DNA of 64,000 bases from Euryarchaeota archaeon UBA88 (GTDB lineage: Archaea; Thermoplasmatota; Poseidoniia; Poseidoniales; Poseidoniaceae): NCBI GenBank assembly GCA_002499545.1, contig DAME01000002.1:5029-69028 (forward strand). Direction: 5' to 3'. The translations under genes and the position numbers were made by a program. Positions 23,093 to 37,676 of this stretch are shown one piece after another. A model generated the notes under the pieces. The model made no database searches. It was not told the DNA's origin and worked only from the letters and a program-made list of their open reading frames with translations. Position 1 is the first letter of the stretch. Every line of letters begins with the position of its first letter.

Positions 23093-25645
23093 TCAAACAT
23101 AACTCGCAAGATGAATCACAAGCGTTCCGTCCTGATGCTCGAACCAAAGTGTGGAATACGTGCTTGAGGAAGGAGTGAATTCAAAGGTATTCCAGCCAGT
23201 TTGAAGCGAGTTTGGAGAAGCGACGATAGACCACTGTTCAAGTCCGTTTCCAACAAAATTCAGTTGCACGGGTATGGAGGCGTTGTCTGAATTATAGAAT
23301 TCGAATTGCGCACCCTGTTCATGAAGCAAGACGCCGTCGTACGCAGCCATCCATTGGTTTGACCACAGTCTGTGCGAAGTATTGTATCGATTAAAGACCA
23401 ACTCGGGACCTCGCTCAACAACGAACTCAAATTCGGGTAGAGGGGATAAATTTTCTGAACAAACCTTCAATTCATCGTCATCTGACATCTGAATATGCCA
23501 CGAATTATTGATGTTGGTTACGGCAGGTATCTTGTAGATATTGCGAACGTCAAGATCCCAAACCCATTGCCCCACAGATGAGGTAGGTGGAATACCTAAG
23601 GTAGAATCAAGCGGGCATGCATCTTCAAGGGTTGAAAGAATACCTCCAGATTCAAGTTTGAAGCCCCATCCCAGCTTTGCATCTGCGGTAATGTTCCATC
23701 CACGTTCAGGCACCACTGCCACGAGGGGAATTTCAGGTTGTCCGGCATCGAACGAGACGTTGTTGAGCGTGATGGTGTTCAATTCAGAAGAGCGAAGCAA
23801 GACGGGGTCAAGGCCGCGCAAGCAAATCCTTGAAGGAGATTCCTCGTATGATGCATTTAATCCGCTGAAGCCTTCAATCCAATACAACCGAGATTGCAGA
23901 TCCTGAACGGCTACTGCTTGCGGGAAGGACACATTCAGAGAGGAAGCTGATTTAGCTTGCACCTTCATGCAGCGTTTCATTTCACCTTCATCAACTTGTA
24001 ATACCCAAGGTGAAGCAGGATACAGATCCAGTTCAGGTCGGACTGAAATCAAATGCGTGAGGTACTCACCGTGGTCGTGAGTTAGCAACGAGAAGTTTGC
24101 CATCATCGGAGAGACTTGATTCATGGTCCAAGTCATGTTCAGGTACACCGAGGTTTGCGTTCGGGGTGGAAGTGTGCTTCCACATCCAAATCCATTGATA
24201 CCTAACTGGTCTTCATCATCGCAGTCCCATATCAAGGACCAACCACTCAGGTCGTCATCGTATTGATCAAAATCAGCGGCCCAATCACGGTTAATCGAGG
24301 AAGGGTTGGTGACCAGAAGGGTGACTTGTGCATTCCATACCCCATCCACCAGTTCCGCCGTAACATTGTGATTCACATCGTAGAATACTCTCGCATCCCA
24401 GTCTTCATCAATTTCAAAAGGAACCTGACTTGGAAGAGCGAAAAGCACCGCTATGAGCATCACAAGTCCGATGTTTTTGATTGACTGGAGATCCAAGCCC
24501 TTTGATTCATTGAGAATAATTGGCGTACGGCGGTCGGTTCCAAAGAACAGAAGCAGTGGGAGGATGAGGGCGAGAATGAACAGCCAAATGGTGAAGCCAT
24601 TGAACGCATCAAACATCCACGCAAAGGCGAGAATAATGAGGAACAGAAATATTTGGTTTGAACCGCTTCGGGCTTCGGATGGTCCGGTACGGGCGACCAT
24701 GATTCTACCACCTGGGAAGGTTGGAATTGGGAGAAGTGAAATCCAACCAAAGAAAGTGAGCAGTGCGCCTGCTTTAGCGAACGGGTGCGCCCAAGTGAGT
24801 CGAGTGATGTATTCATTCATTTGCCACTGGCCGAGAACCTCGACCAAAAACGGACCTTGAACTACATTTTGTGATGAGGTGACAGCCACGTACTCAGGTG
24901 TTAACCAAAGGCCGATGGCCCACAATGCCATACCCAGCGAAATCAGCGTTGCTGGAACGGTTACAGCAACCCAGCCCAGTACCTTGCGGTCCGACCAAGG
25001 ACGAGCGTCCATTCTGGGTAAAGTCGGTATTAAGAACAGTCCAAAAGGCCAAACGAGACTTGCTTGGGAAAAGAGTCCGATACTCCAGAAGGCGATTGAG
25101 GGCTCGGGAAGAGGCGTGATGTGACCGACGCGATGATTGAAGTGTTTTGCCGTTCTTTTTTGAATGCTTGAAGCGATGAAAAGACACAGCAGGACCGGAA
25201 GAGTGTAGCCGATTAGTGCGTCTAGGAACCCTGAGGAGGCAAACCAACCTCCACTGGGGCGAGACCCTTTTAGCCAATAGTCACCGGCTAATGTCAAACA
25301 TAATGCGGAAAAGAACCACATTAAAATCGTGAAACGCAGCGATGGGAATTGACGCTCGGGTAGTGGGAATATTTGGACAATCCATTCTTCTGCTTGTACC
25401 AGTTTTGCCGCCCATCCCAGTTTGCTCAAGTAAGCATTGGCATTTTCAAGGCAATCATCAATCTCGGTATCGTGCCGAGGCGAAACAATCCAAGTCGGCC
25501 AGACGCCACCGCCTACATTTGCTCCAATGAAAAAATAGCGGTCAAGAACATTGGAAAGAAGTTGATGCTGCTTCCACGGGTCACGATGTGCAGCCATAGG
25601 TTCCATTACGGAACCAGGCTCGCTTGAATCATCGGAATCACTCAT
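23093..25645 (-). CDS. Site-2-protease (peptidase M50)-like membrane protein lacking catalytic motifs, fused to a large C-terminal extracytoplasmic domain
   Basis: The N-terminal 400 aa are colinear with archaeal M50 proteins. ASSIQ replaces HExxH, and LLPIPTFPGG replaces the NxxPxxxLDG motif. About 450 aa of non-membrane sequence follow. Confidence 0.5.
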   Translation of the reverse strand: MSDSDDSSEPGSVMEPMAAHRDPWKQHQLLSNVLDRYFFIGANVGGGVWPTWIVSPRHDTEIDDCLENANAYLSKLGWAAKLVQAEEWIVQIFPLPERQFPSLRFTILMWFFSALCLTLAGDYWLKGSRPSGGWFASSGFLDALIGYTLPVLLCLFIASSIQKRTAKHFNHRVGHITPLPEPSIAFWSIGLFSQASLVWPFGLFLIPTLPRMDARPWSDRKVLGWVAVTVPATLISLGMALWAIGLWLTPEYVAVTSSQNVVQGPFLVEVLGQWQMNEYITRLTWAHPFAKAGALLTFFGWISLLPIPTFPGGRIMVARTGPSEARSGSNQIFLFLIILAFAWMFDAFNGFTIWLFILALILPLLLFFGTDRRTPIILNESKGLDLQSIKNIGLVMLIAVLFALPSQVPFEIDEDWDARVFYDVNHNVTAELVDGVWNAQVTLLVTNPSSINRDWAADFDQYDDDLSGWSLIWDCDDEDQLGINGFGCGSTLPPRTQTSVYLNMTWTMNQVSPMMANFSLLTHDHGEYLTHLISVRPELDLYPASPWVLQVDEGEMKRCMKVQAKSASSLNVSFPQAVAVQDLQSRLYWIEGFSGLNASYEESPSRICLRGLDPVLLRSSELNTITLNNVSFDAGQPEIPLVAVVPERGWNITADAKLGWGFKLESGGILSTLEDACPLDSTLGIPPTSSVGQWVWDLDVRNIYKIPAVTNINNSWHIQMSDDDELKVCSENLSPLPEFEFVVERGPELVFNRYNTSHRLWSNQWMAAYDGVLLHEQGAQFEFYNSDNASIPVQLNFVGNGLEQWSIVASPNSLQTGWNTFEFTPSSSTYSTLWFEHQDGTLVIHLASYV

Positions 25646-25724: not shown

Positions 25725-26342
25725 TCACTTGTTCTTGAATCGCTTCAAACGGAATGTTTCCTCACGTTCCATCTCTTCAAGTCGAAGTTGAATGAACACG
25801 CGTGCTTCTTCAAGTTCAGGAATGACCTTGAACTCCAAAGCGTTAACACGGCGCTTGGTTGCTTCAATCTCTTGAAGGAGTCGCTTGAGCGTTGCTTCCA
25901 TTTCAGATGCTTTGACAATCTTTTCAATCAAATTGCCAAATGACTCGCCAGCTTCATCGATGTAAGGAGATGAGCCAATGTAACCAACACCGCGTTCACG
26001 GAACGTTGACTTGAGATTGGTACCGCTCACGCTTGGGACCACGACACCCATGATGTTGCGTCGTTCGACTTCAACCTCAGGATGTCCAGAATTGGCAATG
26101 GCTGCAGCACGAACAGCAAGACCGCCTTCAATGGCGTTTGCAAGATCGATTCGTTGCTTTGCCAATCGGTAGGCATCGGTCAAGTCCCGCTTTGCTTCAA
26201 TCATTGCTGAAAGGAGGGTGCGGAATTCGTGGAACAGTCCGTCACGCTTCATCTTAAGCAGTTTGTAACCGTTTTTGGTTTGCTTAATTCGCCCTTTGAG
26301 TTTGATTAACTCACTTCGGGTCGGTTTGATGTCGAGTGCCAT
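25725..26342 (-). CDS. atpD: A-type ATP synthase subunit D
   Basis: MALDIKPTRSELIKLKGRIK... is the typical subunit D N-terminus. AAGGAG lies upstream of ATG 26342. Last gene of the operon. Confidence 0.9.
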   Translation of the reverse strand: MALDIKPTRSELIKLKGRIKQTKNGYKLLKMKRDGLFHEFRTLLSAMIEAKRDLTDAYRLAKQRIDLANAIEGGLAVRAAAIANSGHPEVEVERRNIMGVVVPSVSGTNLKSTFRERGVGYIGSSPYIDEAGESFGNLIEKIVKASEMEATLKRLLQEIEATKRRVNALEFKVIPELEEARVFIQLRLEEMEREETFRLKRFKNK

Positions 26343-26364
26343 ATGCTTCAGCTCCTTTAGGTGT

Positions 26365-27744
26365 TCAAGCTCTGTTGTCTGGATGATATTTGTCAATCCA
26401 CTTCTGGTCGAGACGGACAAGGTACTTTGTATCGATTGCCGACATGAGATTCCAGCACAAATCGAGTGTTTCCTCAATGGAACGGTCTTCGTCTCGGGTT
26501 TGGCGAAGGAACTTGTCCTCAAACACGCCAGAGAAGTCGAGTAATTGCTTGTCTCGCTCGTTCAATGCGTCTTCACCGACGATGGCAACAAGACCACGAA
26601 GTTCACGGCCTTGTGCATATGCTGCGTACATCTGGTCAGACACCGATTTGTGGTCTTCACGAGTGGTTTTCTCACCAATACACGAACCCATCAATCGGGA
26701 AAGCGATGGTAGAACGTTGATCGGCGGATAGATACCTTGTTGGTGCAATTCACGTGAAATAACAATCTGTCCTTCAGTGATGTATCCAGACAAGTCAGGA
26801 ATTGGGTGTGTGATATCGTCACCAGGCATGGTAAGAATCGGGAATTGTGTGATTGAACCCTTCTTGTTCTTGATAATTCCCGCACGTTCGTAGAGCATGG
26901 CCAAATCGGTGTACATGTAACCGGGGTAACCACGTCGTCCTGGAACTTCTTCACGAGCAGCACCGATTTGACGAAGAGCGTCACAATAGTTGGTCATGTC
27001 TGTGTAGATAACCAGAACGTGGTAGTCTTTCTCAAATGCAAGGTATTCTGCAGCAGTCAAAGCAAGTCGAGGGGTAATGATTCGTTCGACAGCAGGGTCG
27101 TCAGCAAGGTTGACGAACAGTACAGCCTTTTCCAGTGCCCCAGTTCGCTCTAAGTCAGAACGGAAGAAGTTGTATTCTTCAGCGGTAATTCCCATTGCAC
27201 AGAAAACCACAACGAATTCTTCATCAGAATCCTTGAGTTTTGCTTGGCGAGCAATTTGCAGAGCGATGTCGTTGTGTGGAAGACCAGATGCTGAGAAAAT
27301 TGGCAACTTCTGTCCACGGACAAGGCTGGTACACAAATCGATTGCAGAGACACCGGTTTGAATGAAATCATTCGGACTTTGTCGGCTGTAGGGATTAATA
27401 GCAGCGCCGATAATGTCAACTTTCTCCTCAGCGACGATTTCAGGACCGCCGTCACGAGGACGTCCTGCTCCATCAAGAATACGACCAACAAGGTCAGTAC
27501 TCACTGGGAGTTTGAAGACGTCGCCCATGAAGGTGACACCGGATTCACGGTCGATCTTGGAGGTTCCTTCGAACACTTGGACGATTACAAGATCGTCAGA
27601 AGTATCGAGAACTTGTCCATTCTTGATGGTGCCGTTAGAAAGTCGTAGGGTAACGATTTCCCCAAAAGCAACAGGTTCAGTTTTGTTCAAAAAGACCAGA
27701 GGTCCTTTCACGTCAGTAATGGTTCGGTATTCTTTTCCAGTCAT
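26365..27744 (-). CDS. atpB: A-type ATP synthase subunit B
   Basis: [14 protein letters not shown], and the regulatory-subunit pattern without a canonical P-loop ([11 protein letters not shown]). Confidence 0.95.
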
Positions 27745-27757
27745 GGTATTCCTCTCC

Positions 27758-29497
27758 TCAGTTATCCTCCACCGTATCGGCGATTTCGTCGGTCATCTTC
27801 TTGACCATGTCAGCAATGACATCAATGTATCCTTTCTCGAATCGACCTCGCATGAGGTCAGAACGAGCCGGTACGTTGACGACATCGTTGAGAACAGCAC
27901 CACTCGCCATAGCAGACTTTGCTGCATCTTGGAACGAAAGGATGGCCTTGGCCATTTGGTACTGAAGGTGAATATCACAGTATGCGTCAACATCGTGGAA
28001 ACCGTTCTGTTGCAGGAAGAATTCACGAATCATTCGAGCGACTTCAAGGGTCAACTGTTGATCTGTTGGTAGAGCATCGGACCCGACCAATTGGACAATT
28101 TCTTGCAGTTCAGACTCAATCTGAAGCAAACCACTGATTTGAGTACGGACTTCAGGGAAGTCTTGTGAAATGTTATCACGGAACCACTGGTCGAGGCTTT
28201 GCGGGTACAATGAGTACGAATTGAGCCAGTTAATTGCGGGGAAGTGCCGTTGTCGAGCAAGTCCTGCATCGAGCCCCCAGAACACCTTAACGATACGAAG
28301 TGTACCTTGGGAGACCGGTTCAGAAATATCTCCACCGGGTGGAGATACAGCACCAATAACGGTGACAGACCCGTCGTCGCCGTTGAGGGTTTCAACACGG
28401 CCAGCACGTTCGTAGAATTCTGCAATACGAGATGAGAGGTAAGCTGGATATCCTTCTTCACCAGGCATTTCTTCAAGACGAGAGGAAATCTCACGCATTG
28501 CTTCAGCCCAACGAGAAGTCGAATCAGCCATCAAAGCGACGTCGTAGCCCATGTCACGGAAGTATTCTGCAATTGTAATTCCGGTGTACACCGATGCCTC
28601 ACGAGCAGCAACAGGCATGTTTGATGTGTTGGCAATCATGACCGTTCGCTCCATGAGAGGCTTTCCAGTGTTCGGATCAATCAAGTGAGGGAACTCGTCC
28701 AACACTTCAGTCATCTCGTTTCCACGCTCACCACAGCCAATGTACACAACGAGTTGTGCATCAGAGTACTTGGCAAGAGATTGCTGGGTGACGGTTTTTC
28801 CTGAACCGAATGGTCCTGGAATTCCTGCTGCTCCACCTTTTGCAAGCGGGAACAAGAAATCCAGAATTCGCATACCGGTGATGAGAGGGGTTTCGGGTGC
28901 GTACTTCTGCTGGAAAGGCCGGGGCGTTCGAACGGGCCACTTCTGCATCATTTGCATTTCAGTTCCGTCTTCGAGAACGCACACTGTCTGAGTCACGTTG
29001 AAATCTCCAGACTCAATCGATTTCACAACTCCGCTGGTGGTTGGAGGAACCATGATTTTGTGAACGATTGTTTCTGTTTCTTGTACGTGTCCAATGACTT
29101 GGCCAGCAACCACTTCATCGCCAACGGCGACTTGAGGTTCAAAGGTCCAGATCTTTTCCAGATCGAAAGCATCAGCATCGACACCTCGGGTGATGAAAAC
29201 ACCCATTTCTTCTTCCAAGGTTGGAAGAGGACGCTGGATACCGTCATAAATTTGAGTCAAGAGACCCGGACCGAGTGAAACAGAGAGGGTTTCTTGCGTG
29301 TTCAAAACGGGTTCACCGGGTCGAATACCGGAGGTGTCTTCGTACACTTGAATGACAGCTTTATCGCCGTGCAGTTCAATCACTTCGCCCATCAGTCCTT
29401 CGTGTCCAACACGAACGACGTCGTACATTGCAGCTTTCATGCCAGTTGCGGTGACAACAGGCCCGGATATCCGGTAAATTACTCCTTCATTGCTCAT
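27758..29497 (-). CDS. atpA: A-type ATP synthase catalytic subunit A
   Basis: [12 protein letters not shown]-terminus, P-loop GPFGSGKT, and [22 protein letters not shown] precedes ATG 29497. No intein. Confidence 0.95.
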
Positions 29498-29525
29498 TTT
29501 TATTTCCTCCATGTGGGTTGGATCA

Positions 29526-29825
29526 TTACTTCCAAAGGTCGACTCCAATTGCCTTACGAATCGTATCTCGCAAGGTTGTGTCTTCTTCCGTACCAATTCC
29601 TAGAACGGTCGGAGAGACGGATGCCGAGAGTTGGTCGCGAAGACGCTCCGGCAGCGTAGATAGGATTGTGGAGTCAACCACGACAATCCCTACGCTCTTA
29701 GTGTTGAGTAGTTTCTTGAAAGTTGAGATCATAGCCTCGTCGCTTTCAGGGCTGTGCAGGTTATCGATTCCTGCAAGTTGGAATCCGAGGGTGAATTCTG
29801 GCGAGCCTACAACTGCTATATCCAT
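29526..29825 (-). CDS. atpF: A-type ATP synthase subunit F
   Basis: [20 protein letters not shown]; size and operon position fit. Confidence 0.85.
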
Positions 29826-29836
29826 ACTTCATCACC

Positions 29837-30877
29837 TCACAATACGTGTGCTTCAAGCACTTCGGTCGACAATCCAGCAAGGCGCCCACGAACGATTAGA
29901 CGCAAATCATTCACTTCTTGGACCTTCATGGCCACGTAATGAATAATCGGTAGTGCTGATACTGGATGGAGGAAACTCATGCGCTTCATGATAGCATGCT
30001 CACGTTCTTTGAGCCAAACGACAACGGCGTCGAGGCTTTTCTCTGCCTTCGAGGCAGCAAGAACTGCTTCGAAGGCGGGGAAGTCAAATCGGCTTGAAGC
30101 TCGAAGTAAGTCCATAGCGGCATCAACGCCACCTGCTGCAATCGAAGAGAATGCTCGAGACGGAATCAGTCGTCCGCCGTGAATGAGCATCGATACAACT
30201 ACATCTGGTGCAAAACCGACTGCATCCGCTTCGATGATGTTAATCAAATTGCGGTGGTCGATTTCAGCAGCAAGCAAATTTTTCAGGAATCGAACATCGG
30301 GGCCCTTACCATTCAATGAAGCCAAAGCTCGCTTGAAGTAGTGTCGGTCCAAGGCATCCTCGTAATCCGAAAGAACTGCATCTTCGGCAACTGCCAACAG
30401 AGCGGAACCAAACACTTTGCGACGCATCTGTACAACCGCTGAGCGGATGTCATCTGCGTTCTCGATGATTTTTAGCCAAGGAGTGTTGATGTCGTTGAGT
30501 TCAGGGAGAATGGAATTCGCTATCTTTTCGATCTCGACATCCTTGTCGACTGCCCGGAGAACAACCTTCGCGTTATGATAATCAAAGCGAGAGGTGTATG
30601 TCTCAACCATGCCGCGGATTTTCCCGTTGCACATTGAGAGCATGTTTTCCAGTTCGTGTTCCAAGTTGTGAGTGAGGGCTGCCTCAACCAAATCTCCACC
30701 CGATAGTTTGCCTGCATACAGGTCTATCTCAGAGCGGTACCCGATTTCACCAACCGCAACGGTGAGCTGGTCGGGTGATTGGTTGATCAACTGGCGTAGC
30801 CTGGCACGGTCCGCAAGTTTCTGCCGTCGCGACTTTGCGCGGGCAGCAACATATGGTGTATTTCCAAGCATTACCAT
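29837..30877 (-). CDS. atpC: A-type ATP synthase subunit C
   Basis: About 346 aa, helical, positioned between E and F. The N-terminus YVAARAKSRRQKL is typical of subunit C (d). Confidence 0.85.
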   Translation of the reverse strand: MVMLGNTPYVAARAKSRRQKLADRARLRQLINQSPDQLTVAVGEIGYRSEIDLYAGKLSGGDLVEAALTHNLEHELENMLSMCNGKIRGMVETYTSRFDYHNAKVVLRAVDKDVEIEKIANSILPELNDINTPWLKIIENADDIRSAVVQMRRKVFGSALLAVAEDAVLSDYEDALDRHYFKRALASLNGKGPDVRFLKNLLAAEIDHRNLINIIEADAVGFAPDVVVSMLIHGGRLIPSRAFSSIAAGGVDAAMDLLRASSRFDFPAFEAVLAASKAEKSLDAVVVWLKEREHAIMKRMSFLHPVSALPIIHYVAMKVQEVNDLRLIVRGRLAGLSTEVLEAHVL

Positions 30878-30886
30878 CGATATCCC

Positions 30887-31450
30887 TCAGTCAAAAAGTA
30901 TTGAATTCATTTCAGCGAGTTGTTCACTCCACGACGTGTGAAGTAACGTATCGAAACGCATGTCGTAAGAGACCGAGCCATCCGGTGCTTCGAGAACAAA
31001 GCCACCCAGACCGTCAATGGATTCTCCGACCTTTCGCTTGCCGGCCAGTTCTGAAAGTGCCTTGCGGTCAAGTTCAACTGGACGGACAGTGTAGTCATCG
31101 CCACCAATTTTGTCCGCTTTGCTCATCAATGACTTGAGCAGACTTGCTCTTCCTGAAAATTTAGGATTTCCGAGTTCATCGCTGGCAGCCTGAAGAGTCT
31201 CATCGAGAACCTTGCGACGTGCAACGAGGATTTCTTTTTGGTTGGCTTGTCGAGCACTGGCCACAACTTCCCGGGCAATTTGACTTGCTTCACGTTCAGT
31301 GCGGCTCGATGCTTCGGTGCGGATGGCATCTGCTTTGGAGTTCGCTTCGGCCAAAATAGCCTTTGCTTCTTCATTTGCAGCATCCATCATTGCGGAGGCT
31401 TCAGCCTCAGCAGATTTAGCGATATCTTGTGCGAGTGTTTCGAGCGTCAT
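30887..31450 (-). CDS. atpE: A-type ATP synthase subunit E
   Basis: Ala/Glu/Lys-rich N-terminal helix plus a globular C-terminus; operon position fits. Confidence 0.8.
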   Translation of the reverse strand: MTLETLAQDIAKSAEAEASAMMDAANEEAKAILAEANSKADAIRTEASSRTEREASQIAREVVASARQANQKEILVARRKVLDETLQAASDELGNPKFSGRASLLKSLMSKADKIGGDDYTVRPVELDRKALSELAGKRKVGESIDGLGGFVLEAPDGSVSYDMRFDTLLHTSWSEQLAEMNSILFD

Positions 31451-31511
31451 GTATATTCCTCTGTCTATTTAGTTCAGTCAACTGGGTTTCCCCAGGGTGT
31501 AGCCTTCTCCC

Positions 31512-31814
31512 TCAAAGGAAGAGTGGCAGTGCACCGAGAATGACGATTGATTCAGGAAGAGCAGTGAAAATCAATGCTGGTCCGAATTTGCTACCGTCTT
31601 CTGCGAGCATACCGACAGCGGCGCTACCGATTGCGGCTTGGGACATTCCAGCACCAATTGCTGCAAGACCAAGTGCGACACCGGCACCAATGTCTGAGTA
31701 ACCGTCACCGGTGCTCTTTGTTTCTTCTGCTGCTGCAACTCCTTGAGCAACCATAGTGATGGCTGCCAAGAGGATCAGTGTTCTTAGGCTCGTTTTTAGG
31801 GTGTTTGCGTTCAT
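31512..31814 (-). CDS. atpK: A-type ATP synthase proteolipid subunit K (c), with an N-terminal hydrophobic extension
   Basis: Gly/Ala-rich hairpin IGAGVALGLAAIGAGMSQAAIGSAAVG ... ALPESIVILG with the carboxylate Glu. An extra N-terminal segment LRTLILLAAITMVAQGVAAA is present. Confidence 0.85.
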   Translation of the reverse strand: MNANTLKTSLRTLILLAAITMVAQGVAAAEETKSTGDGYSDIGAGVALGLAAIGAGMSQAAIGSAAVGMLAEDGSKFGPALIFTALPESIVILGALPLFL

Positions 31815-31848
31815 ATTTGCTACCTCCGTTTATTTTATGTCCGTTGGA

Positions 31849-34254
31849 CTATGATTGACTCTCCACGTGGAGAGAACGGCCTCCGAGCGGTGCAAATGCA
31901 CGGCCAGATCCGTCGTAGAATTTGCCCATCCATTCCACAAAGTGGAGACGGGCTGCGTGAATCGTAGGTGAGAGAATTCCGAGTGCCAAGGCGAAGACCT
32001 GGACGAAGAGGAAAATTCCGAGACACAGTAGAGCGGTAAGCCAACCGCCAAAACCACCGGTTTCAATACCAGCGAGAATATTTTCCCACCCAAGAATGAT
32101 GGAGACTTCTGCAATTTTGACTCCAGCGACACCAACTGCCATGATTCGCAGGTAGGAGAGTGTGTTAGCAAGGAGCCCGAAGGTTTCGATTGGTCCCATG
32201 ATGATTCCACCTGCCCAGCCAAATCCTTCATAGATGGCAAGGCCGACAATCAAGCAGCCAATTCCGCCGAGAAGAAGGAAGTTCCAAAGCGGCTGGAATT
32301 GGAAGAGGTCAGTCCCGAACATGACAAAGTTTCGGCAAATCATGAAACCTCCGACCAGAATCATCAACCAAGAGCCTTTCTCGAAGAAAGCGGCAGAGAA
32401 TCCATGCGCCTTGTTGACGTTGAAAAATCCGATAAGGAGACCGACCAAGATGTGGAATACACCGAGATAGACTGCGAGAGAGACATATTGTTCAAGTCCG
32501 TGTCCAGCGCTTGCACGGTGGAATGGCATCATGATGAATGGATGGTCAGCATCGCCAAGACCGAGGAATACAGCAATATTTTCTGGTAGAACAAAGGTGT
32601 CATGCGCCCATTCGTAAAATCCAGTCAGGATTGCGATATCTGGACCCCAGTGGTACCCGTCCTTGAGAACGCCAGCTGCGTCATACATGCTTCCGTCCCA
32701 AACAAAACCAAACCCTTCAGCGAAGATAATGCCCCAAATAATGCACCACACACCCATCCAGCGTAGAACTGTGAGGCCTTTTCCAGCAAGTGGGTCTGCA
32801 GCGAACGGCTTTGAGCCGAGCCAAGCAGACAAAGCTACCAAGACGAGACCATAGCCCCAATCGCCAAGAATCATCCCGTAAATGAACGGGAATGTCATCA
32901 TGATGAGCATCGACGGTTCAAACGTCCCATACTTTGGACGACCGACTAAATCGACGAGTAGTTCAAACGGCTGAGTCGCCTTATTGTTGTTGAATTCGAT
33001 AGGTGGATCGACGTGCACAGGCTCTTCATGGTGGACCGGCATATTGCGGATACGGGTGAGCGCAATATCGAGTTCGGGCAGGTTGAGCTTTCCATCTCCA
33101 TCCATGTCCATCGAAGCAACTAGCGGACCAATGTTCCACGGAGGAAGGTCGGCAATGCTGGAATTTTTCAGCGCCTTGCTGAATTCGTAACTGTCGATAT
33201 CGCCTGAGCGGTCCAAGTCGATTGAACCGAAGAATTCGAAAATCGACTGATTTGAACGAACAAGATAGTCAGAGAGCATTTGCAATTCTTTCGCCACTTC
33301 AACTCCAGGCTCTTCGTGTGAATCATGGTGGTGGCCGTGGTCGTCAACATAAGGCTCGATACTTACGTGGGATGCTGCCTTCGACAGTCGGTCGATGACA
33401 CGTTGCTTGTGTTCGCTTGGAACCCATCCATCGAGTGCAAACGCTTGATTGCTCACAGCGACGAGAGTTGGAGCGGTAAAAATTGCCGATTCCCGCACGA
33501 GGTGCTCCTCAACTGCGATGAGTTTTCGACCGTGCGCTTCAACCCACGCTTCGAGTGATGACTGAGCGGTTTCAATCGCTGATTCCAAACCGCTAATCTC
33601 TTCAAGAATTGCTTTTGCTTTCTCTGATGGAGAGCCTTCTCCTGTAGGTATTTGAACGGCTTTAGCACCAAGTTCCGCCATGCCGATTTGAACCTCAGCC
33701 GATTGATTTGAACGGCAAGCAACGGCGACTAGGCCGCTGGTTGAGTGAAGTTCGATGTCGCTCTTGATGTCAGCGAAAACAGTGGGCGCTCGAGAGGCCC
33801 GACTGGTCTCACCCACGTATACCTCGACACCTTCAAAACCGCCCATCAATTCAAGCGGTATATCCAATGGAGCCAAGCGACTAAGAGCCTGATGTTGTTC
33901 ATTCAAAGTGTTAATCATCGCCTCGGATTCCCGTAGTGTTGTGATGTATCCAAGAGCGGTTTCAACCTCTGATTCAAACTTTGGAAGAAGTTTGGAGATT
34001 TCGCTGCGAGACATTGGGCCATCTGAGTTAAACGCAGAAACGGATGATGAAATCGCTTGGACTTTTACCAACATGGCGCTGACCGAGTTAGCAGCCTCTG
34101 AATCCATTGACTTACCGACGCCAATTCCGTCTTCGAATCGACCATATTCCTGAATGTGAACGCAACTGAGCTCGGTGCAGATGCGGAGAATTTCTTCCAT
34201 TTTCTCAACGGGAGCCGCTACTGTAAGACGTGACATCTCAGAAGTAGCAAACAT
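31849..34254 (-). CDS. atpI: A-type ATP synthase subunit I (a), carrying an inserted His-rich/EF-hand module
   Basis: A cytoplasmic N-terminal domain and a multi-TM C-terminal domain with the conserved LSYLRIMAVG region. An insert of about 110 aa includes HGHHHDSHEE, DLDRSGDIDSYE and DMDGDGKLNLPE. Confidence 0.9.
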   Translation of the reverse strand: MFATSEMSRLTVAAPVEKMEEILRICTELSCVHIQEYGRFEDGIGVGKSMDSEAANSVSAMLVKVQAISSSVSAFNSDGPMSRSEISKLLPKFESEVETALGYITTLRESEAMINTLNEQHQALSRLAPLDIPLELMGGFEGVEVYVGETSRASRAPTVFADIKSDIELHSTSGLVAVACRSNQSAEVQIGMAELGAKAVQIPTGEGSPSEKAKAILEEISGLESAIETAQSSLEAWVEAHGRKLIAVEEHLVRESAIFTAPTLVAVSNQAFALDGWVPSEHKQRVIDRLSKAASHVSIEPYVDDHGHHHDSHEEPGVEVAKELQMLSDYLVRSNQSIFEFFGSIDLDRSGDIDSYEFSKALKNSSIADLPPWNIGPLVASMDMDGDGKLNLPELDIALTRIRNMPVHHEEPVHVDPPIEFNNNKATQPFELLVDLVGRPKYGTFEPSMLIMMTFPFIYGMILGDWGYGLVLVALSAWLGSKPFAADPLAGKGLTVLRWMGVWCIIWGIIFAEGFGFVWDGSMYDAAGVLKDGYHWGPDIAILTGFYEWAHDTFVLPENIAVFLGLGDADHPFIMMPFHRASAGHGLEQYVSLAVYLGVFHILVGLLIGFFNVNKAHGFSAAFFEKGSWLMILVGGFMICRNFVMFGTDLFQFQPLWNFLLLGGIGCLIVGLAIYEGFGWAGGIIMGPIETFGLLANTLSYLRIMAVGVAGVKIAEVSIILGWENILAGIETGGFGGWLTALLCLGIFLFVQVFALALGILSPTIHAARLHFVEWMGKFYDGSGRAFAPLGGRSLHVESQS

Positions 34255-34263
34255 GGAATCGCC

Positions 34264-34575
34264 TCATTGTGATTTGACTGCCCCAAGGAGCGCCTTGACT
34301 GCTTTGTCCTTGCGTTCTGAAGCAGAAGATTCGATTGCTTGAATTGTAGCAGCGCCTTCTTCTTGTACAGCACTGGCCTCTTTACCGGCCTTAGCACGTG
34401 CAGCATCGATCGCTGCTTGGGTTTGAGTGAAAGATTCTTCCGAGGCTGCGGTAACCAACGAGGTGGCTTCTCGGCGTGCGTCAGCAGTAATCTTTCCGGA
34501 TTCTGTTTGAGCACTTGCGAGTGTTTTTTCGGCAGACTGCTCAGCCTCTTTGATTTTGCGAAGAACATCAGCCAT
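34264..34575 (-). CDS. atpH: A-type ATP synthase subunit H
   Basis: A small Ala/Glu/Lys-rich helical protein (MADVLRKIKEAEQSAEK) at the head of the operon. ATG 34575; the ORF opens at GTG 34590. Confidence 0.75.
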   Translation of the reverse strand: MADVLRKIKEAEQSAEKTLASAQTESGKITADARREATSLVTAASEESFTQTQAAIDAARAKAGKEASAVQEEGAATIQAIESSASERKDKAVKALLGAVKSQ

Positions 34576-34664
34576 ACCCACATAAATCACCTGTAGCCTA
34601 ACTGACTTGGAGGGGGTTTATGAGGCTAATGGGCGCGACATCTGCGCCACTGGAACACAGTACC

Positions 34665-35492
34665 TCAGTCCCGGAGTGGTTTTGTCGCTCGGAACCGACT
34701 GGCCATAGCAAACGGCATCAACAGTCGACCTTGAACATCATCAAAACCAACTTCCTTCATCATGGCGCGATAATAGCCGTTGGTCCCGTACTGCGTGTAT
34801 GTTTGAGCGAGTCCTTTCCACGGATGGTTCTTTTCCTTGGTCACATATCGGGCGATCCATTGAACGACCGTTGCCATCCAAATTCGGCCACCTAGTCCGT
34901 GAAACCAGTTGGCTTTTCCTGCGTCGCAAATCACGAGACGACCGCCCGGCTTAAGAACTCGAAATATCTCACTCAAGCCTTTCTTTTTATCTTGGAAATC
35001 TCTGAATGAAAACAAGCAAAAAACCATGTCGAAGGTGTCGTCTTCCAAAGGGATTGATTCTGCAATCGCTTCGACATACTGAGCGGGTTTTTCTCCCCGA
35101 GATGCTCGAGCCGAATCGACACGTTTTTTGGCAACTTTCAGCATTTCAGCCGAAGGATCTAAACACGTAACGTCCAAATCAACAAGGTCTTCAGCAAATG
35201 AACCCGGTCCGCAACCGACTTCGAGGACCTTCATGCCTGGTGATGCATGGTTCCGGACATTTTTACGCCACACCTTGTCTTGACCAAAAGTCATGAGACG
35301 ATTGACACGGTCGTAATTTGGAATCGAATCTTCGAGTTGCGATTCAAGAATCTCCCAAGCATCAAGGTCGATTCCTGAGGGGTCGTATCCCCCGGTTGCA
35401 GCTCTTCCGCCCATGGCCTTTCGGCTCCCCCGACCTCTTTGGATATGTCGCTTCCAAAAGTACGGCTGAACGCTCGGCCTGGACCTCGCCAT
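34665..35492 (-). CDS. ubiE: UbiE/MenG-family SAM-dependent (demethylmenaquinone-type) methyltransferase
   Basis: YDRVNRLMTFGQDKVWRK and the SAM motif VLEVGCGPGSF. Its ATG shares one nt with the stop of the upstream KaiC-like gene (TGATG). Confidence 0.75.
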   Translation of the reverse strand: MARSRPSVQPYFWKRHIQRGRGSRKAMGGRAATGGYDPSGIDLDAWEILESQLEDSIPNYDRVNRLMTFGQDKVWRKNVRNHASPGMKVLEVGCGPGSFAEDLVDLDVTCLDPSAEMLKVAKKRVDSARASRGEKPAQYVEAIAESIPLEDDTFDMVFCLFSFRDFQDKKKGLSEIFRVLKPGGRLVICDAGKANWFHGLGGRIWMATVVQWIARYVTKEKNHPWKGLAQTYTQYGTNGYYRAMMKEVGFDDVQGRLLMPFAMASRFRATKPLRD

Positions 35493-36295
35493 CAAGCGAT
35501 ACGTTCGACGGTTTCTGGCGTAATACCTTCTTCTGGTGTCACTCTGAATACGAGAATTTTCAAATTTTCTGGAGCGTTGCGGAATTTGGAGACGATCATC
35601 GAGGTTTCAAAATCGGTACCGATGGTTCGTACTTGAAACGACAGAACCATGTCGGCGATTGAGGACAATTCTTGCTTTACTGAGGGGTCTAAACCGTTGG
35701 TGGACACTGAAATCAGCAAAAGACCACGGTTCAACTGAGCGTGTGCTGCAAGCATCCGGACCATCGCCACTACCCGAGCGGGATCTTCTCGCTGAAGGAA
35801 GAAGTCGAGACTGTCGACCACGGCTCGGAAATACGGGCCAAGTGCCATGATTTCGTTGGTAACTTCCGTCAAGTAGTCCTGATTGTTGTCATCGACGAAC
35901 CGTGTTTGAGCAAGTCGTTGGATATCATCGAGTTGGAAACCTTCCAAACGGTAACGGCTCGCTAAAAGTTCACGTTCGAGAACCGTCGAGTTGTATTCTT
36001 CCCCGATGGTACGAACATTGATATCGAGCGGCCAGTCATACTTTTGAAAAATTCGAACGATTTCTTGCTGCCCTTCATTTGTCGAGATATACAGCGTGTT
36101 TTCTGATTCCTCGGCAGGAGAAGAAAACTGCTTCGCAAACAACTCACTCCCCGACCCAGTATCGGTGAAAGCGACCATCGTGAATCCTCGAGGCACGCCC
36201 CCGTGCATCTCATTGTCGAATTTCGGAACACCAAAGGAGCCTACTTTACCGAAGAACTCCTCATCTTCTGCATCAAATTCTATTTTACGGGCCAT
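35492..36295 (-). CDS. KaiC/RecA-superfamily protein with a degenerate P-loop
   Basis: KaiC-like lead-in GVPKFDNEMHGGVPRGFTMVAF, but TDTGSGSE replaces GxxGxGKT. A Walker-B-like AVVDSLD is retained. Confidence 0.6.
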   Translation of the reverse strand: MARKIEFDAEDEEFFGKVGSFGVPKFDNEMHGGVPRGFTMVAFTDTGSGSELFAKQFSSPAEESENTLYISTNEGQQEIVRIFQKYDWPLDINVRTIGEEYNSTVLERELLASRYRLEGFQLDDIQRLAQTRFVDDNNQDYLTEVTNEIMALGPYFRAVVDSLDFFLQREDPARVVAMVRMLAAHAQLNRGLLLISVSTNGLDPSVKQELSSIADMVLSFQVRTIGTDFETSMIVSKFRNAPENLKILVFRVTPEEGITPETVERIA

Positions 36296-36304
36296 GAAAC
36301 TACC

Positions 36305-36901
36305 TCAGTGAATCACCACTTGGCCACGATCGATGAGATCGGTGCAATACAAGTCAAGATTGGAAAGTACCAGTGGTGGAGTTTGGTCAGGGACATTGAG
36401 AATCACTGACAGAACTTCACGTTGACGGAAGGTGTTGATGAAGGTGTGAAGGTATTCAGCAAGCATCCTATCTTCATTGTAAATAGCCAGAGCGTTGACA
36501 CTGTCAAGGAATACAAAGTTCCGCTGAGAATTGATGGTTCGCAGGATGTAAAGAGTCCGCAAAAGGACGGATTCGAGCATGATTGGGCTGTCGACAAAGT
36601 GAATGTTTGGATATTCTACGTCGGTACCGCCCAAAATTCCTGACGACACCAAATCGATGAACTGGATGTGAGAAACATCAAGCCCGATGGTCTTGAACGC
36701 TTCAATGATTTCAACAGCACCTCGACTGGCGCTAATGTATACGCCACCCATCTCGAACATCTGCATCAAGGGAACCATGGTGCTGGCGGTGACCATGAAT
36801 GCGTTGGAATTACCGCATCGGACTTGGATGGCACTGTTGAGCGTGACTTCTGCATTCAGCTGTTCTGCAATTCGCTGGTCAAGTTCAAACATTTCATACA
36901 C
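36305..36901 (-). CDS. Short RecA-fold-like protein without a P-loop (degenerate KaiC paralog)
   Basis: There is no Walker A. A Walker-B-like strand NFVFLDSVNALA is present, and the size and position fit between two KaiC-like genes. Start at GTG 36901 or ATG 36892. Confidence 0.45.
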   Translation of the reverse strand: MYEMFELDQRIAEQLNAEVTLNSAIQVRCGNSNAFMVTASTMVPLMQMFEMGGVYISASRGAVEIIEAFKTIGLDVSHIQFIDLVSSGILGGTDVEYPNIHFVDSPIMLESVLLRTLYILRTINSQRNFVFLDSVNALAIYNEDRMLAEYLHTFINTFRQREVLSVILNVPDQTPPLVLSNLDLYCTDLIDRGQVVIH

Positions 36902-37676
36902 CTACCCTGTTGGCTTTGTCGGTTTGTGCACCCCATTTGAGCATCGGAGTGAGCATGACACCCAATGGTGTCAGTTCGATTGCATGCTTGGCTCGGCTGT
37001 GGGCAGTACCACGCATTTTCACAACCTGTAAGAATCTCAACAAATGCCCCATTCGCTCGACGTCTCCCATGACAATGATGCCATCTGCAATCGCTTCTTC
37101 AACTCCGAACGAAGACCAGTGGGCGTTTTCCGTAGCCGAAGTGATTTCTGAAATTAGAATGGTCGTACATCCGAGAGTTGCGAGTTTCTTTCCAAGCGTG
37201 AACAGGAAGTCACGAATCAACTGTTCCGACTTAATTTTGTAACACAGCGTTGTCACTGAATCAATCACAAGGCGAGTCACACCGATGGTGTTGACAATAT
37301 CGACGATCGCTTTGATGAGCGCATGGACGTCATCTAAGTCGAAGGATGCTTTATCCAATCCCAGCCACGAATACAGAACGTCCATGTCAAACACGTTGAT
37401 GAGACCGGAATCGACCATGTTCATGTCAAAGAATGCATATTGGCGTATGTTTTCCAGCAGTTTAACCGAGGGTTCAGTTGCAGTAAAATGGGCACATGCT
37501 TCACCTGCAAGTGCACCCCGTACGAGAAATTCCATTCCCAGTGTCGTCTTTCCAGAACCACACGTTCCTGCGGCCAAAACAGTTGAGCCGTACGGTATAC
37601 CGCCACGAAGGATTTCATCCAATCCGTGGATACCCGTTACGCAACGGTCACGGGTATAAACTGAGCCTGCTTGCAT
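36894..37676 (-). CDS. KaiC-like RecA-superfamily ATPase (intact)
   Basis: TGIHGLDEILRGGIPYGSTVLAAGTCGSGKTTLGMEFL (Walker A), Walker B RLVIDSVT, and C-terminal LQVVKMRGTAHS. ATG 37676; the ORF opens at TTG 37694. Confidence 0.8.
   Translation of the reverse strand: MQAGSVYTRDRCVTGIHGLDEILRGGIPYGSTVLAAGTCGSGKTTLGMEFLVRGALAGEACAHFTATEPSVKLLENIRQYAFFDMNMVDSGLINVFDMDVLYSWLGLDKASFDLDDVHALIKAIVDIVNTIGVTRLVIDSVTTLCYKIKSEQLIRDFLFTLGKKLATLGCTTILISEITSATENAHWSSFGVEEAIADGIIVMGDVERMGHLLRFLQVVKMRGTAHSRAKHAIELTPLGVMLTPMLKWGAQTDKANRVGV

What the first reader, a model, noticed from the sequence alone, without database searches (positions are those of the whole stretch)
33010..33348. EF-hand pair plus His-rich patch inserted into A-type ATP synthase stator subunit I
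Subunit I is 801 aa long. About 110 aa sit between the end of the cytoplasmic N-terminal domain (...SHVSIEPYVDD) and the conserved pre-membrane segment (PPIEFNNNKATQPFELLVDLVGRPKYGTFEPS). These residues read as an insert. It contains a His/acidic patch (HGHHHDSHEE) followed by two textbook 12-residue Ca-binding loops, DLDRSGDIDSYE and DMDGDGKLNLPE, spaced as in a paired EF-hand. The site is the hinge between the peripheral-stalk-binding collar and the ion-translocating membrane domain. A Ca2+- or metal-dependent conformational switch there could modulate coupling or assembly of the rotary ATPase. I am not aware of a described EF-hand-bearing subunit I/a.
Basis: partly seen in the sequence, partly recalled or inferred. 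Interest (0 to 1): 0.7.

Follow-up and report, generated by a model that had tools for sequence, protein, structure and literature searches.

The report
Calcium-sensor domain inside archaeal ATP synthase stator
A whole clade of abundant marine archaea (Poseidoniaceae, Marine Group IIa) carries a calmodulin-like pair of calcium-binding EF-hands in the flexible tether between the stator collar and the ion channel of its rotary ATP synthase. I found no published description of this arrangement, and it suggests that calcium may act on the enzyme, though that has not been tested.

Summary
The ORF at 31849-34254 (-) encodes an 801-aa A/V-type ATPase subunit I within a complete H-I-K-E-C-F-A-B-D operon. 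Residues 306-416 hold a His/acidic patch and two loops that fit the PROSITE EF-hand pattern. Pfam, PDB sequence search, AlphaFold2 and Foldseek all identify a helix-loop-helix pair.

The interpretation needs one correction. Only about 96 aa, the EF module (roughly aa 316-411, folded core 322-404), is the insertion. The His/acidic stretch belongs to an older His-rich linker that EF-less relatives, including Ca. Poseidonia alphae, keep intact. The module splits that linker.

The insertion arose once: the EF+ group is supported in 99 of 100 bootstraps and is nested among EF-less lineages. It is present in 56 of 56 species-level genomes of that clade. All 173 unique sequences keep both loops, with the ligand positions invariant or conservatively substituted. 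It evolves under dN/dS of about 0.05, like the membrane domain. Among the 150 best of 5676 relatives in 1.84 billion representative proteins, only this cluster (its representative plus one fragment of the same kind) carries it. Elsewhere the linker has a median of 8 aa.

No searchable paper describes it. Ca2+ binding and any regulatory effect are inferred, not shown. Verdict: real, a new variant of a known kind, moderately to highly interesting.

The parts
31849..34254 (-). atpI/ntpI: A/V-type ATP synthase subunit I (a), 801 aa
   Evidence: ORF. PF01496 scores 108.6 bits against a cut-off of 30.7. AF2 gives pLDDT 92.1 and pTM 0.82. Foldseek matches 6qum_N at E = 7e-24.
33352..34254 (-). Cytoplasmic N-terminal collar domain (aa 1-301): a hairpin of long helices with two alpha/beta lobes. 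The last strand of the proximal lobe is aa 296-301.
   Evidence: AF2 secondary structure. Match to 3rrk and to the a_sol region of subunit a/I structures.
33292..33351 (-). N-side His/acidic flank of the tether (aa 302-321, includes HGHHHDSHEE). Predicted disordered.
   Evidence: pLDDT 50-69. A His-rich stretch at this position is also present in the EF-less relatives L057-L080 and in most of P0121-P0137.
33043..33291 (-). Folded core of the inserted EF-hand module (aa 322-404). It has a lead helix at 322-334, then EF-hand 1 (helix 338-344, loop, helix 355-364), a conserved PPW inter-hand linker, and EF-hand 2 (helix 375-382, loop, helix 392-404).
   Evidence: AF2 pLDDT is about 90-94 in the full-length model and 82-92 in the stand-alone model. 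Foldseek top 50 are all EF-hand proteins. Pfam and PDB sequence hits. dN/dS is 0.053.
33184..33219 (-). EF loop 1, DLDRSGDIDSYE (aa 346-357)
   Evidence: PS00018 match. Positions 1, 3, 5, 6 and 12 are invariant in 173 unique sequences.
33073..33108 (-). EF loop 2, DMDGDGKLNLPE (aa 383-394)
   Evidence: PS00018 match. Positions 1, 5, 6, 9, 10, 11 and 12 are invariant and position 3 is D or N in 173 unique sequences. Loop-to-loop spacing is always 37.
33007..33042 (-). C-side His/acidic flank of the tether (aa 405-416, NMPVHHEEPVHV). Predicted disordered.
   Evidence: pLDDT 38-67. His/acidic composition is kept in EF+ relatives.
32914..33006 (-). Conserved pre-membrane segment PPIEFNNNKATQPFELLVDLVGRPKYGTFEP (aa 417-447)
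   Evidence: Aligns to PPTYFRTNKFT... of eukaryotic subunit a. P418 is invariant in 130 sequences. Mean identity within the clade is 82%.
31852..32913 (-). Membrane domain (aa 448-801), including R703 (32146-32148) in the LSYLR motif
   Evidence: S700, R703, R769 and E774 are invariant in the 130-sequence alignment A2. R703 aligns with the Arg of the ASYLRLWALSLAH motif of subunit a.
33306..33318 (-). Copy 1 of a 13-nt in-frame direct repeat (encodes H-E-E-P) bracketing the module. Copy 2 is at 33018-33030, 288 nt (96 codons) away.
   Evidence: the repeat finder family D1, 12/13 identical. The duplicated HEEP motif is seen in only 7 of 54 EF+ relatives, so it is weak evidence for how the insertion happened.
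25725..34590 (-). Complete A-type ATP synthase operon: H (34264-34590), I, K/c (31512-31814), E (30887-31450), C/d (29837-30877), F (29526-29825), A (27758-29512), B (26365-27744), D (25725-26342)
   Evidence: Pfam hits. F subunit ORF. The same neighbours with the same lengths occur in EF+ and EF- loci.

Best explanation
A calmodulin-lobe-like EF-hand pair of about 96 aa (lead helix plus two canonical 12-residue loops) was inserted once, in the ancestor of a large subclade of Poseidoniaceae (Marine Group IIa). It went into the pre-existing His/Asp/Glu-rich cytoplasmic tether that joins the collar domain of ATP synthase subunit I to its ion-translocating membrane domain. The module is a folded, metal-binding domain held on two disordered His-rich leashes of about 20 and 12 aa. 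It sits next to the proximal lobe, the membrane surface and the rotor cap (subunit C/d).

Most likely mechanism (inferred): binding of cytoplasmic Ca2+ to both loops changes the conformation of the pair. That changes the length or stiffness of the tether, or docks the module on a neighbouring surface. Either effect would bias the position of the collar relative to the rotor, and so modulate coupling, ATP-hydrolysis braking or A1-Ao assembly.

Shown here: the insertion, its fold, its single origin, its strict conservation and its cytoplasmic position.

Inferred: Ca2+ binding, the conformational switch and its target.
For: Identity and fold: Pfam EF-hand_1 is above its cut-off. PDB sequence hits to calmodulin, centrin and RSP7 reach E = 2e-8. 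AF2 shows two helix-loop-helix units with the inter-loop beta bridge at pLDDT about 90. All 50 best Foldseek hits are EF-hand proteins; the best is ACF7 EF1-EF2 with probability 1.0 and rmsd 2.9 A over 78 columns.

Insertion: there is a clean indel of about 97 aa against EF-less Poseidoniaceae. The linker has a median of 8 aa in the 103 other subunit I proteins.

Single gain: the EF+ sequences form one group in the NJ tree built on 658 non-insert columns, nested within EF- lineages, with 99/100 bootstrap support.

Selection: 56 of 56 species-level genomes of the clade keep the module. All 173 unique sequences keep two PS00018 loops at a spacing of 37, with ligand positions 1, 3, 5 and 12 invariant or D/N. 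dN/dS is 0.053 for the module, against 0.080 for the N-terminal domain and 0.051 for the membrane domain.

Rarity: of the 150 best representatives among 5676 relatives in 1.84 billion proteins, only the cluster representative P0107 and one fragment carry it.

Why the site matters: in Thermus Vo the soluble arm pivots on its proximal subdomain, and arm-to-d contacts block the rotor (PMC7367684). The N-terminal domain of eukaryotic subunit a is a regulatory hub and binds Ca2+-calmodulin in trans in Drosophila (PMC10313074; PMC3987144).
Against: No biochemical data exist and the organisms are uncultured. I found only 2 clade-specific substitutions outside the insert (M137, L472) and no length change in subunits H, K, E or C, so no co-evolved docking surface is evident. 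The position of the module relative to the rest of the protein could not be read from the model, and both leashes are low-confidence. Foldseek E-values for the small domain are weak (0.03-1). dS is near saturation (1.4-1.9), so the dN/dS values are rough. Cytoplasmic Ca2+ signalling is essentially undocumented in archaea. An EF pair with fully canonical ligands could equally be permanently metal-loaded and purely structural.
Confidence: 0.4

Rival explanations
1. Constitutive structural spacer. The EF pair is permanently loaded with Ca2+ or Mg2+ and serves as a rigid, compact domain. It lengthens or stabilises the collar-to-membrane tether, or shields the rotor-stator gap, and has no signalling role.
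For: Strong purifying selection and intact ligands are equally expected for a structural metal site. There is no co-evolving partner surface and no change in neighbouring subunits. The EF-hand-like domain of the V-ATPase binder mEAK-7 is structural and does not sense calcium (PMC9263379).
Against: Closely related Poseidoniaceae work with a 16-24-aa tether and most archaea with about 8 aa, so no spacer is required. Unlike mEAK-7, every Ca2+-ligand position here is canonical and invariant. The disordered leashes on both sides argue against a rigid strut.
Confidence: 0.3
2. Cation or pH-sensing patch. The older His/Asp/Glu-rich tether is the functional element, acting as a transition-metal binder, pH sensor or proton-collecting antenna near the cytoplasmic half-channel. 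The EF pair only adds more cation-binding capacity or positions the His clusters.
For: The His-rich linker predates the EF module and is wider in distribution: it occurs in EF-less L057-L080 and in most of P0121-P0137. The linker is 10% His against 2.8% for the whole protein, and 50 of 103 other subunit I proteins have a His in the last 8 residues before the PP motif. Both flanks stay His/acidic in every EF+ sequence checked.
Against: The flanks are the least conserved parts, at 37-45% identity, and are predicted disordered. The EF module is at 66% identity and has its own invariant ligands, so it is selected in its own right. EF loops are oxygen-ligand sites suited to Ca2+, not to the transition metals that His binds.
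Confidence: 0.12
3. Docking module. The EF pair binds an amphipathic helix of another protein, as a calmodulin lobe does. It would recruit a regulator, anchor the enzyme at a cellular site, or link ATP synthases to each other.
For: The domain is calmodulin-lobe-like. It has a strictly conserved exposed PP(W) motif between the hands and a conserved amphipathic lead helix, E323 L324 L327 S328 L331. The same 64-kb window encodes two more EF-pair fusion proteins, so EF modules are used repeatedly in this genome. Poseidoniales-specific families with Ca-binding domains have been noted before (PMC9258230).
Against: No candidate partner gene is gained next to the operon in EF+ loci. The lead helix probably occupies the cleft in cis, since it is modelled at pLDDT ~92 against the pair.
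Confidence: 0.13
4. Neutral passenger or assembly artefact. The domain is tolerated in a permissive loop, or is a chimeric mis-assembly, and has no function.
For: The site is a hot spot for length variation: linkers run up to 75 aa in other lineages.
Against: The module is found in at least 173 distinct sequences from independent assemblies and sources (NCBI, ENA, JGI, Tara, Logan), including a closed MG-II chromosome, CM001443. There is no loss in 56 species, dN/dS is 0.05, and the ligands are invariant.
Confidence: 0.03

Closest known systems
Canonical A/V-type ATPase subunit I/a (e.g. Thermus thermophilus subunit I in 6QUM/6LY9, Meiothermus ruber N-terminal domain 3RRK, yeast Vph1)
   Same: It shares the overall architecture: an N-terminal hairpin collar with proximal and distal lobes, the PPxxxxN pre-TM segment, the membrane domain with the invariant LSYLR arginine, and the operon context.
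   Different: Canonical proteins join the collar to the membrane domain with about 5-10 residues. This protein has 116 aa over the same stretch (P301-D416), containing a folded EF-hand pair between two His-rich leashes. None of the ten longest of the other representatives examined carries any extra Pfam domain.
EF-less subunit I of Ca. Poseidonia alphae and other Poseidoniaceae (L057-L080, P0121, P0122)
   Same: 49-54% identical outside the insert, with the same operon and the same His/acidic linker at the same site.
   Different: They lack the EF module of about 96 aa. They are the sister and outgroup lineages that set the direction of change as a gain.
Ca2+-calmodulin binding to the N-terminal domain of Drosophila V-ATPase subunit a1 (V100)
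   Same: A Ca2+-loaded EF-hand protein acts on the cytosolic domain of the same stator subunit (PMC3987144; PMC10313074).
   Different: There, calmodulin binds in trans and the effect concerns SNARE assembly rather than rotary catalysis. Here a single calmodulin-like lobe is fused in cis into the tether of an archaeal ATP synthase.
mEAK-7, a TLDc protein bound to mammalian V-ATPase
   Same: An EF-hand-like domain is physically associated with a rotary V-type ATPase (PMC9263379).
   Different: The mEAK-7 domain lacks the acidic ligands, does not respond to Ca2+, and belongs to an accessory protein. The Poseidoniaceae module has all canonical ligands and is part of a core subunit.
Membrane transporters and channels regulated by built-in cytosolic EF-hands: mitochondrial carriers SCaMC/APC and aralar/citrin, plant TPC1, NOX5, polycystin-2 (from my own knowledge, not checked here)
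   Same: The design principle is the same: an EF-hand pair fused to, or inserted in, a cytosolic linker of a membrane machine so that Ca2+ gates activity.
   Different: They are unrelated protein families and all eukaryotic. I know of none that is a rotary ATPase.

Membership tests
A/V-type ATPase subunit I/a (Pfam PF01496 V_ATPase_I) | Profile match above the curated threshold | tested here: met
   108.6 bits against a cut-off of 30.7, E = 3e-31. phmmer hits to subunit a/I of solved V- and V/A-ATPases reach E = 5e-22.
A/V-type ATPase subunit I/a (Pfam PF01496 V_ATPase_I) | Two-domain fold: a cytoplasmic hairpin collar plus a C-terminal multi-helix membrane domain | tested here: met
   AF2 gives pLDDT 92.1 and pTM 0.82. 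Foldseek matches 6qum_N at E = 7e-24 with target-normalised TM 0.72, and also eukaryotic subunit a structures and 3rrk.
A/V-type ATPase subunit I/a (Pfam PF01496 V_ATPase_I) | Essential arginine of the ion path (Arg of the SYLRLWALSLAH motif; Vph1 R735 from my own knowledge) | tested here: met
   R703 in NTLSYLRIMAVG is invariant in 130 sequences and aligns to the Arg of ASYLRLWALSLAH.
A/V-type ATPase subunit I/a (Pfam PF01496 V_ATPase_I) | Encoded in an A/V-type ATPase operon | tested here: met
   H-I-K-E-C-F-A-B-D on the minus strand at 25725-34590.
Canonical EF-hand pair (Pfam PF00036/PF13499; PROSITE PS00018) | Two 12-residue loops with oxygen ligands at positions 1, 3, 5 and 12 and Gly at 6 | tested here: met
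   Both loops match PS00018. The pattern is kept in 173 of 173 unique homologues.
Canonical EF-hand pair (Pfam PF00036/PF13499; PROSITE PS00018) | Profile match above the curated threshold | tested here: met
   EF-hand_1 scores 25.8 bits (whole protein) and 32.2 bits (segment) against a cut-off of 25.4. EF-hand_6 scores 29.9 against 25 and EF-hand_5 27.1 against 25.9 on the segment. The pair model EF-hand_7 scores 28.6, just under its cut-off of 30, on this sequence. Most homologues list PF13499 in their precomputed Pfam domains.
Canonical EF-hand pair (Pfam PF00036/PF13499; PROSITE PS00018) | Helix-loop-helix twice, paired through a short antiparallel beta bridge between the loops | tested here: met
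   AF2 shows H338-344 / loop with strand 352-354 / H355-364, then H375-382 / loop with strand 389-391 / H392-404, at pLDDT about 90.
Canonical EF-hand pair (Pfam PF00036/PF13499; PROSITE PS00018) | Structural similarity to solved EF-hand domains | tested here: inconclusive
   All 50 best Foldseek hits are EF-hand proteins. The best is 5ve9_B with probability 1.00, rmsd 2.9 A over 78 columns and TM 0.58. E-values are only 0.03-1, however, and no hit passes 1e-3.
Canonical EF-hand pair (Pfam PF00036/PF13499; PROSITE PS00018) | Binds Ca2+ | not testable with these tools
   Needs ITC, 45Ca overlay or NMR on the recombinant module.
Ca2+-regulated rotary ATPase (hypothetical class) | Enzyme activity, coupling or assembly changes with Ca2+ | not testable with these tools
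   The organisms are uncultured and no biochemical data exist. No paper was found.

The most novel reading that the evidence does not exclude
The A-type ATP synthase of a major clade of surface-ocean archaea is directly gated by cytoplasmic Ca2+ through an EF-hand sensor built into its stator hinge. That would be the first rotary ATPase with an intrinsic second-messenger sensor. It would also be evidence that Ca2+ signalling controls core bioenergetics in an archaeon, for example by braking wasteful ATP hydrolysis or uncoupling when membrane energisation fails and Ca2+ leaks in from seawater.
Probability: 0.3. Interest if true: 0.85.

Novelty: new variant of a known kind. Interest (0 to 1): 0.62.

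Why it matters
Rotary ATPases are among the most conserved machines in biology, and their core stator subunit rarely acquires foreign domains. None of the ten longest of the other subunit I representatives examined had one. Here a canonical Ca2+-binding module sits at the junction where the collar leaves its proximal lobe for the membrane domain. The proximal lobe is the part on which the collar pivots relative to the rotor in Thermus. The module has been kept unchanged across dozens of species of Marine Group IIa, one of the most abundant archaeal groups in the surface ocean.

If Ca2+ acts there, that would be a new mode of ATP synthase regulation and a concrete entry point into archaeal calcium signalling. 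The natural EF+ and EF- sister lineages, which have otherwise near-identical operons, provide a ready-made comparison for experiments. Even if the module is only structural, it marks a permissive and mechanically interesting site for engineering sensors into rotary ATPases.

Tried and rejected
1. Target-site-duplication signature. A 13-nt in-frame direct repeat (H-E-E-P) brackets exactly 96 codons in the window. The duplicated motif occurs in only 7 of 54 EF+ relatives, so I do not treat it as a relic of the insertion event.

2. Donor search. tblastn of the module against the window and the 80 loci found only one other hit, the EF pair of ORF 347-1462 at 24% identity and E = 2e-4. That is too distant to call a donor. 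A database search with the module alone was not run, because its list of 120 hits would be filled by subunit I proteins.

3. Co-evolving partner. The lengths of subunits H, K, E and C do not differ between EF+ and EF- loci. Only two clade-specific substitutions lie outside the insert. No docking surface was identified.

4. Other domain insertions in subunit I. The longest other representatives (728-842 aa) show only PF01496.

5. Genus-level mapping. Rinke et al. 2019 (PMC6461757) does not list the MAG names in its main text, so the EF+ clade could not be tied to named GTDB genera. The exceptions are one EF+ locus whose contig name carries the label MGIIa-L1 (L041) and EF- Ca. Poseidonia.

6. 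Whether Marine Group IIb lacks the module. This is inferred only from the EF-less, 31-39%-identical marine relatives P0123-P0131.

7. Position of the EF module in the full-length model. The tools do not return model coordinates or PAE, so this could not be examined.
Full report
**1. The observation**

The minus-strand ORF at 31849-34254 encodes an 801-aa protein. The finding's coordinates, 33010-33348, encode residues 303-415.
- SHVSIEPYVDD at aa 295-305
- HGHHHDSHEE at aa 306-315
- DLDRSGDIDSYE at aa 346-357
- DMDGDGKLNLPE at aa 383-394
- PPIEFNNNK from aa 417

The protein is subunit I/a of an A/V-type ATPase. Pfam PF01496 scores 108.6 bits against a gathering score of 30.7. It lies in a complete H-I-K-E-C-F-A-B-D operon at 25725-34590.

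Both loops match PROSITE PS00018. The six-frame translation of the window contains 5 such matches, against 0.21 +/- 0.43 in shuffles. Pfam EF-hand_1 passes its cut-off, at 25.8 bits on the whole protein and 32.2 bits on the isolated segment (cut-off 25.4). The pair model EF-hand_7 falls just short, at 28.6 against 30. A sequence search of the PDB with the segment alone finds EF-hand pairs of radial spoke protein 7, calmodulin and centrin at E = 2e-8 to 1e-4.

**2. It is an insertion, and where it sits**

In eukaryotic subunit a structures the alignment resumes exactly at PPIEF..., matching PPTYFRTNKFT. I aligned 130 subunit I proteins, 27 from this clade and 103 others drawn from a HMMER scan of 1.84 billion representative proteins. 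The stretch between E300 and P417 has these lengths:
- 112-120 aa in this clade
- 16-24 aa in the nearest relatives
- median 8 aa in the 103 other proteins

An AlphaFold2 model of the full protein has mean pLDDT 92.1 and pTM 0.82. Its layout is:
- the last strand of the proximal lobe at 296-301
- a low-confidence stretch at 302-321
- a confident five-helix module at 322-404, with short strands at 352-354 and 389-391 inside the two loops
- a second low-confidence stretch at 405-418
- the amphipathic pre-TM helix at 428-437, followed by the membrane helices

The whole model matches Thermus thermophilus V/A-ATPase subunit I best (6qum_N, E = 7e-24, TM 0.72). A stand-alone model of the segment has pLDDT 78.5, and 82-92 in the core. 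Its 50 best Foldseek hits are all EF-hand proteins. The best is ACF7 EF1-EF2 with probability 1.0 and rmsd 2.9 A over 78 columns, followed by calmodulin, troponin C, CaBP7 and calbindin D9k. E-values are only 0.03-1, as is usual for so small a domain.

The collar binds the cytoplasmic peripheral stalks, so the insert is cytoplasmic. This follows from the established topology of these enzymes.

**3.

The His/acidic patch is not part of the inserted unit. A scan of one genome per GTDB species returned 80 loci, all but two of them titled as Poseidoniales, Poseidoniaceae or unclassified euryarchaeal MAGs. Fifty-six of them (772-802 aa where complete) have both EF loops. The other 24 (660-687 aa) have none, and these include Ca. 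Poseidonia alphae, the type species of subgroup IIa (PMC6461757). Yet these 24 keep a His-rich stretch at the same position, for example DDHHGHDDG-HYEP-TPPV.

Most of the more distant marine relatives at 28-39% identity also have 16-24-aa His-rich linkers. Even among other subunit I proteins the linker is 10% His, against 2.8% for the whole protein.

The alignment shows a clean indel of about 97 aa inside this linker, leaving His/acidic residues on both sides of the module. In the window, a 13-nt in-frame direct repeat encoding H-E-E-P brackets exactly 96 codons. This duplication is not general, occurring in 7 of 54 relatives.

**4. Evolutionary behaviour**

I built a neighbour-joining tree on 658 columns outside the insert. 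It places all 55 EF+ sequences in one group, nested among EF- lineages. That bipartition appears in 99 of 100 bootstrap replicates. The simplest reading is one gain and no loss.

In a search of 5.8 billion protein clusters, the 120 best hits (53-100% identical) all carry EF-hand Pfam domains. Some of these clusters hold more than 100 member sequences, from NCBI, ENA, JGI, Tara and Logan.

Across 173 unique EF+ sequences both loops always match PS00018 and are always 37 residues apart:
- Loop 1 positions 1, 3, 5, 6 and 12 are invariant.
- Loop 2 positions 1, 5, 6, 9, 10, 11 and 12 are invariant, and position 3 is D or N.

Pairwise dN/dS (NG86) is 0.053 for the module, 0.080 for the N-terminal domain and 0.051 for the membrane domain. 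dS is 1.4-1.9 and therefore near saturation. The His flanks are the least conserved parts, at 37-45% identity against 66% for the module.

Among the best 150 of 5676 relatives in the representative library, only the cluster representative P0107 and one fragment contain the module. The ten longest of the other subunit I proteins carry no additional Pfam domain.

**5. Mechanism**

The following are shown:
- a folded module with every canonical EF-hand ligand position intact, under strong purifying selection
- two disordered His-rich leashes holding it
- a position at the junction between the collar and the membrane domain

From the literature: in Thermus the soluble arm pivots on its proximal subdomain, and in isolated Vo it contacts subunit d to block the rotor (PMC7367684). 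In eukaryotes the N-terminal domain of subunit a is a regulatory hub, and in Drosophila it binds Ca2+-calmodulin (PMC10313074; PMC3987144).

My best explanation is therefore an inference. Ca2+ binding changes the conformation of the pair. That alters the tether, or docks the module on a neighbour such as subunit C/d, the E-H stalk base, the proximal lobe or the membrane surface. Either effect would bias collar position and modulate coupling, hydrolysis braking or assembly.

The evidence against is real. No co-evolved surface or partner was found, there are no biochemical data, and archaeal Ca2+ signalling is poorly documented. The main rival is a constitutively metal-loaded structural domain. 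Lesser rivals are a role subordinate to the His-rich cation or pH patch, and a docking module for another protein. A neutral passenger or an assembly artefact is excluded by the conservation data.

**6. Comparison with what is known**

The protein is a member of the subunit I/a family; all four defining features tested were met. The insert meets the sequence and predicted-fold criteria of a canonical EF-hand pair. Structural similarity to solved EF-hands was inconclusive by E-value, and Ca2+ binding itself cannot be tested here.

The nearest functional analogues are Ca2+-calmodulin acting in trans on Drosophila V0a1 and the degenerate, Ca-insensitive EF-hand-like domain of the V-ATPase binder mEAK-7 (PMC9263379). 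Both differ in kind from a canonical EF pair fused in cis into a core stator subunit.

Five full-text searches found no paper describing an EF-hand in subunit I/a. The only nearby remark is that Poseidoniaceae- and Thalassarchaeaceae-specific protein families include ones with calcium-binding domains (PMC9258230). Consistent with that, the same 64-kb window encodes two more EF-pair fusion proteins. The sequences and their Pfam hits are already in public databases, so what is new is the recognition and analysis, not the data.

**7. Verdict**

This is a real feature: a single-origin, strongly conserved EF-hand pair inserted into a His-rich stator tether of the A-type ATP synthase in a large subclade of Marine Group IIa archaea. 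I class it as a new variant of a known kind. Its function as a Ca2+ switch is plausible but untested. Interest 0.62.

Noticed in passing
window 347-1462 (+): A 371-aa ORF with its own EF-hand pair (DTNKDGIISRTE ... DLNGDGVLLVSE, aa ~127-186; Pfam EF-hand_1 27.1 bits). A Pro/Thr/Glu-rich linker and an unannotated C-terminal domain follow. It is 24% identical to the subunit I module.
   Followed up: partly
window 48306-49577 (-): A 423-aa ORF with an N-terminal hydrophobic segment, a long charged coiled-coil-like region, a weak DUF2135 hit and a C-terminal EF-hand pair (EF-hand_7 33.4 bits, above its cut-off). It is the third EF-pair protein in this 64-kb window.
   Followed up: partly
A2 alignment; loci L057-L080; P0121-P0137, P0147, P0172, P0210, P0236: The collar-to-membrane linker of subunit I is a recurrent site of His-rich expansion in several lineages, with stretches up to about 40 aa such as DVDTHHHGHGHGDHGG. 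Even short canonical linkers often read H-[DE]-[DN] just before the PP motif. The role of these histidines is unexplained.
   Followed up: partly
window 31512-31814 (-): The c/K subunit is 100 aa. The ATP-synt_C hairpin covers only aa 42-95, after an extra N-terminal hydrophobic segment (LRTLILLAAITMVAQGVAAA). The ion-site residues read Q in helix 1 and P-E-S in helix 2, so Na+ versus H+ coupling is open.
   Followed up: no
window 32500-32700 (-), subunit I aa ~520-585: A long loop between membrane helices (WDGSMYDAAGVLKDGYHWGPDIAILTGFYEWAHDTF...) is modelled at low confidence (pLDDT 61-85). It varies in length within the clade: the query and L001-L011 are about 15-20 aa longer than the others.
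   Followed up: no
window 23093-25645 (-): An 850-aa ORF immediately downstream of atpD on the same strand has no Pfam match at E <= 1e-3.
   Followed up: no
window 35492-37676 (-): Three consecutive KaiC/RecA-like ATPase ORFs (267, 198 and 260 aa) lie just upstream of the ATP synthase operon, beyond a UbiE-type methyltransferase at 34665-35495. Two of them match Pfam PF06745 (59 and 177 bits); the middle ORF, 36305-36901, was not scanned.
   Followed up: no
loci L007 and L076: Two contigs carrying typical Poseidoniaceae subunit I genes are filed under bacterial MAG names (uncultured Flavobacteriales bacterium; Salinimicrobium sp.). This is probably binning contamination in those assemblies.
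   Followed up: no
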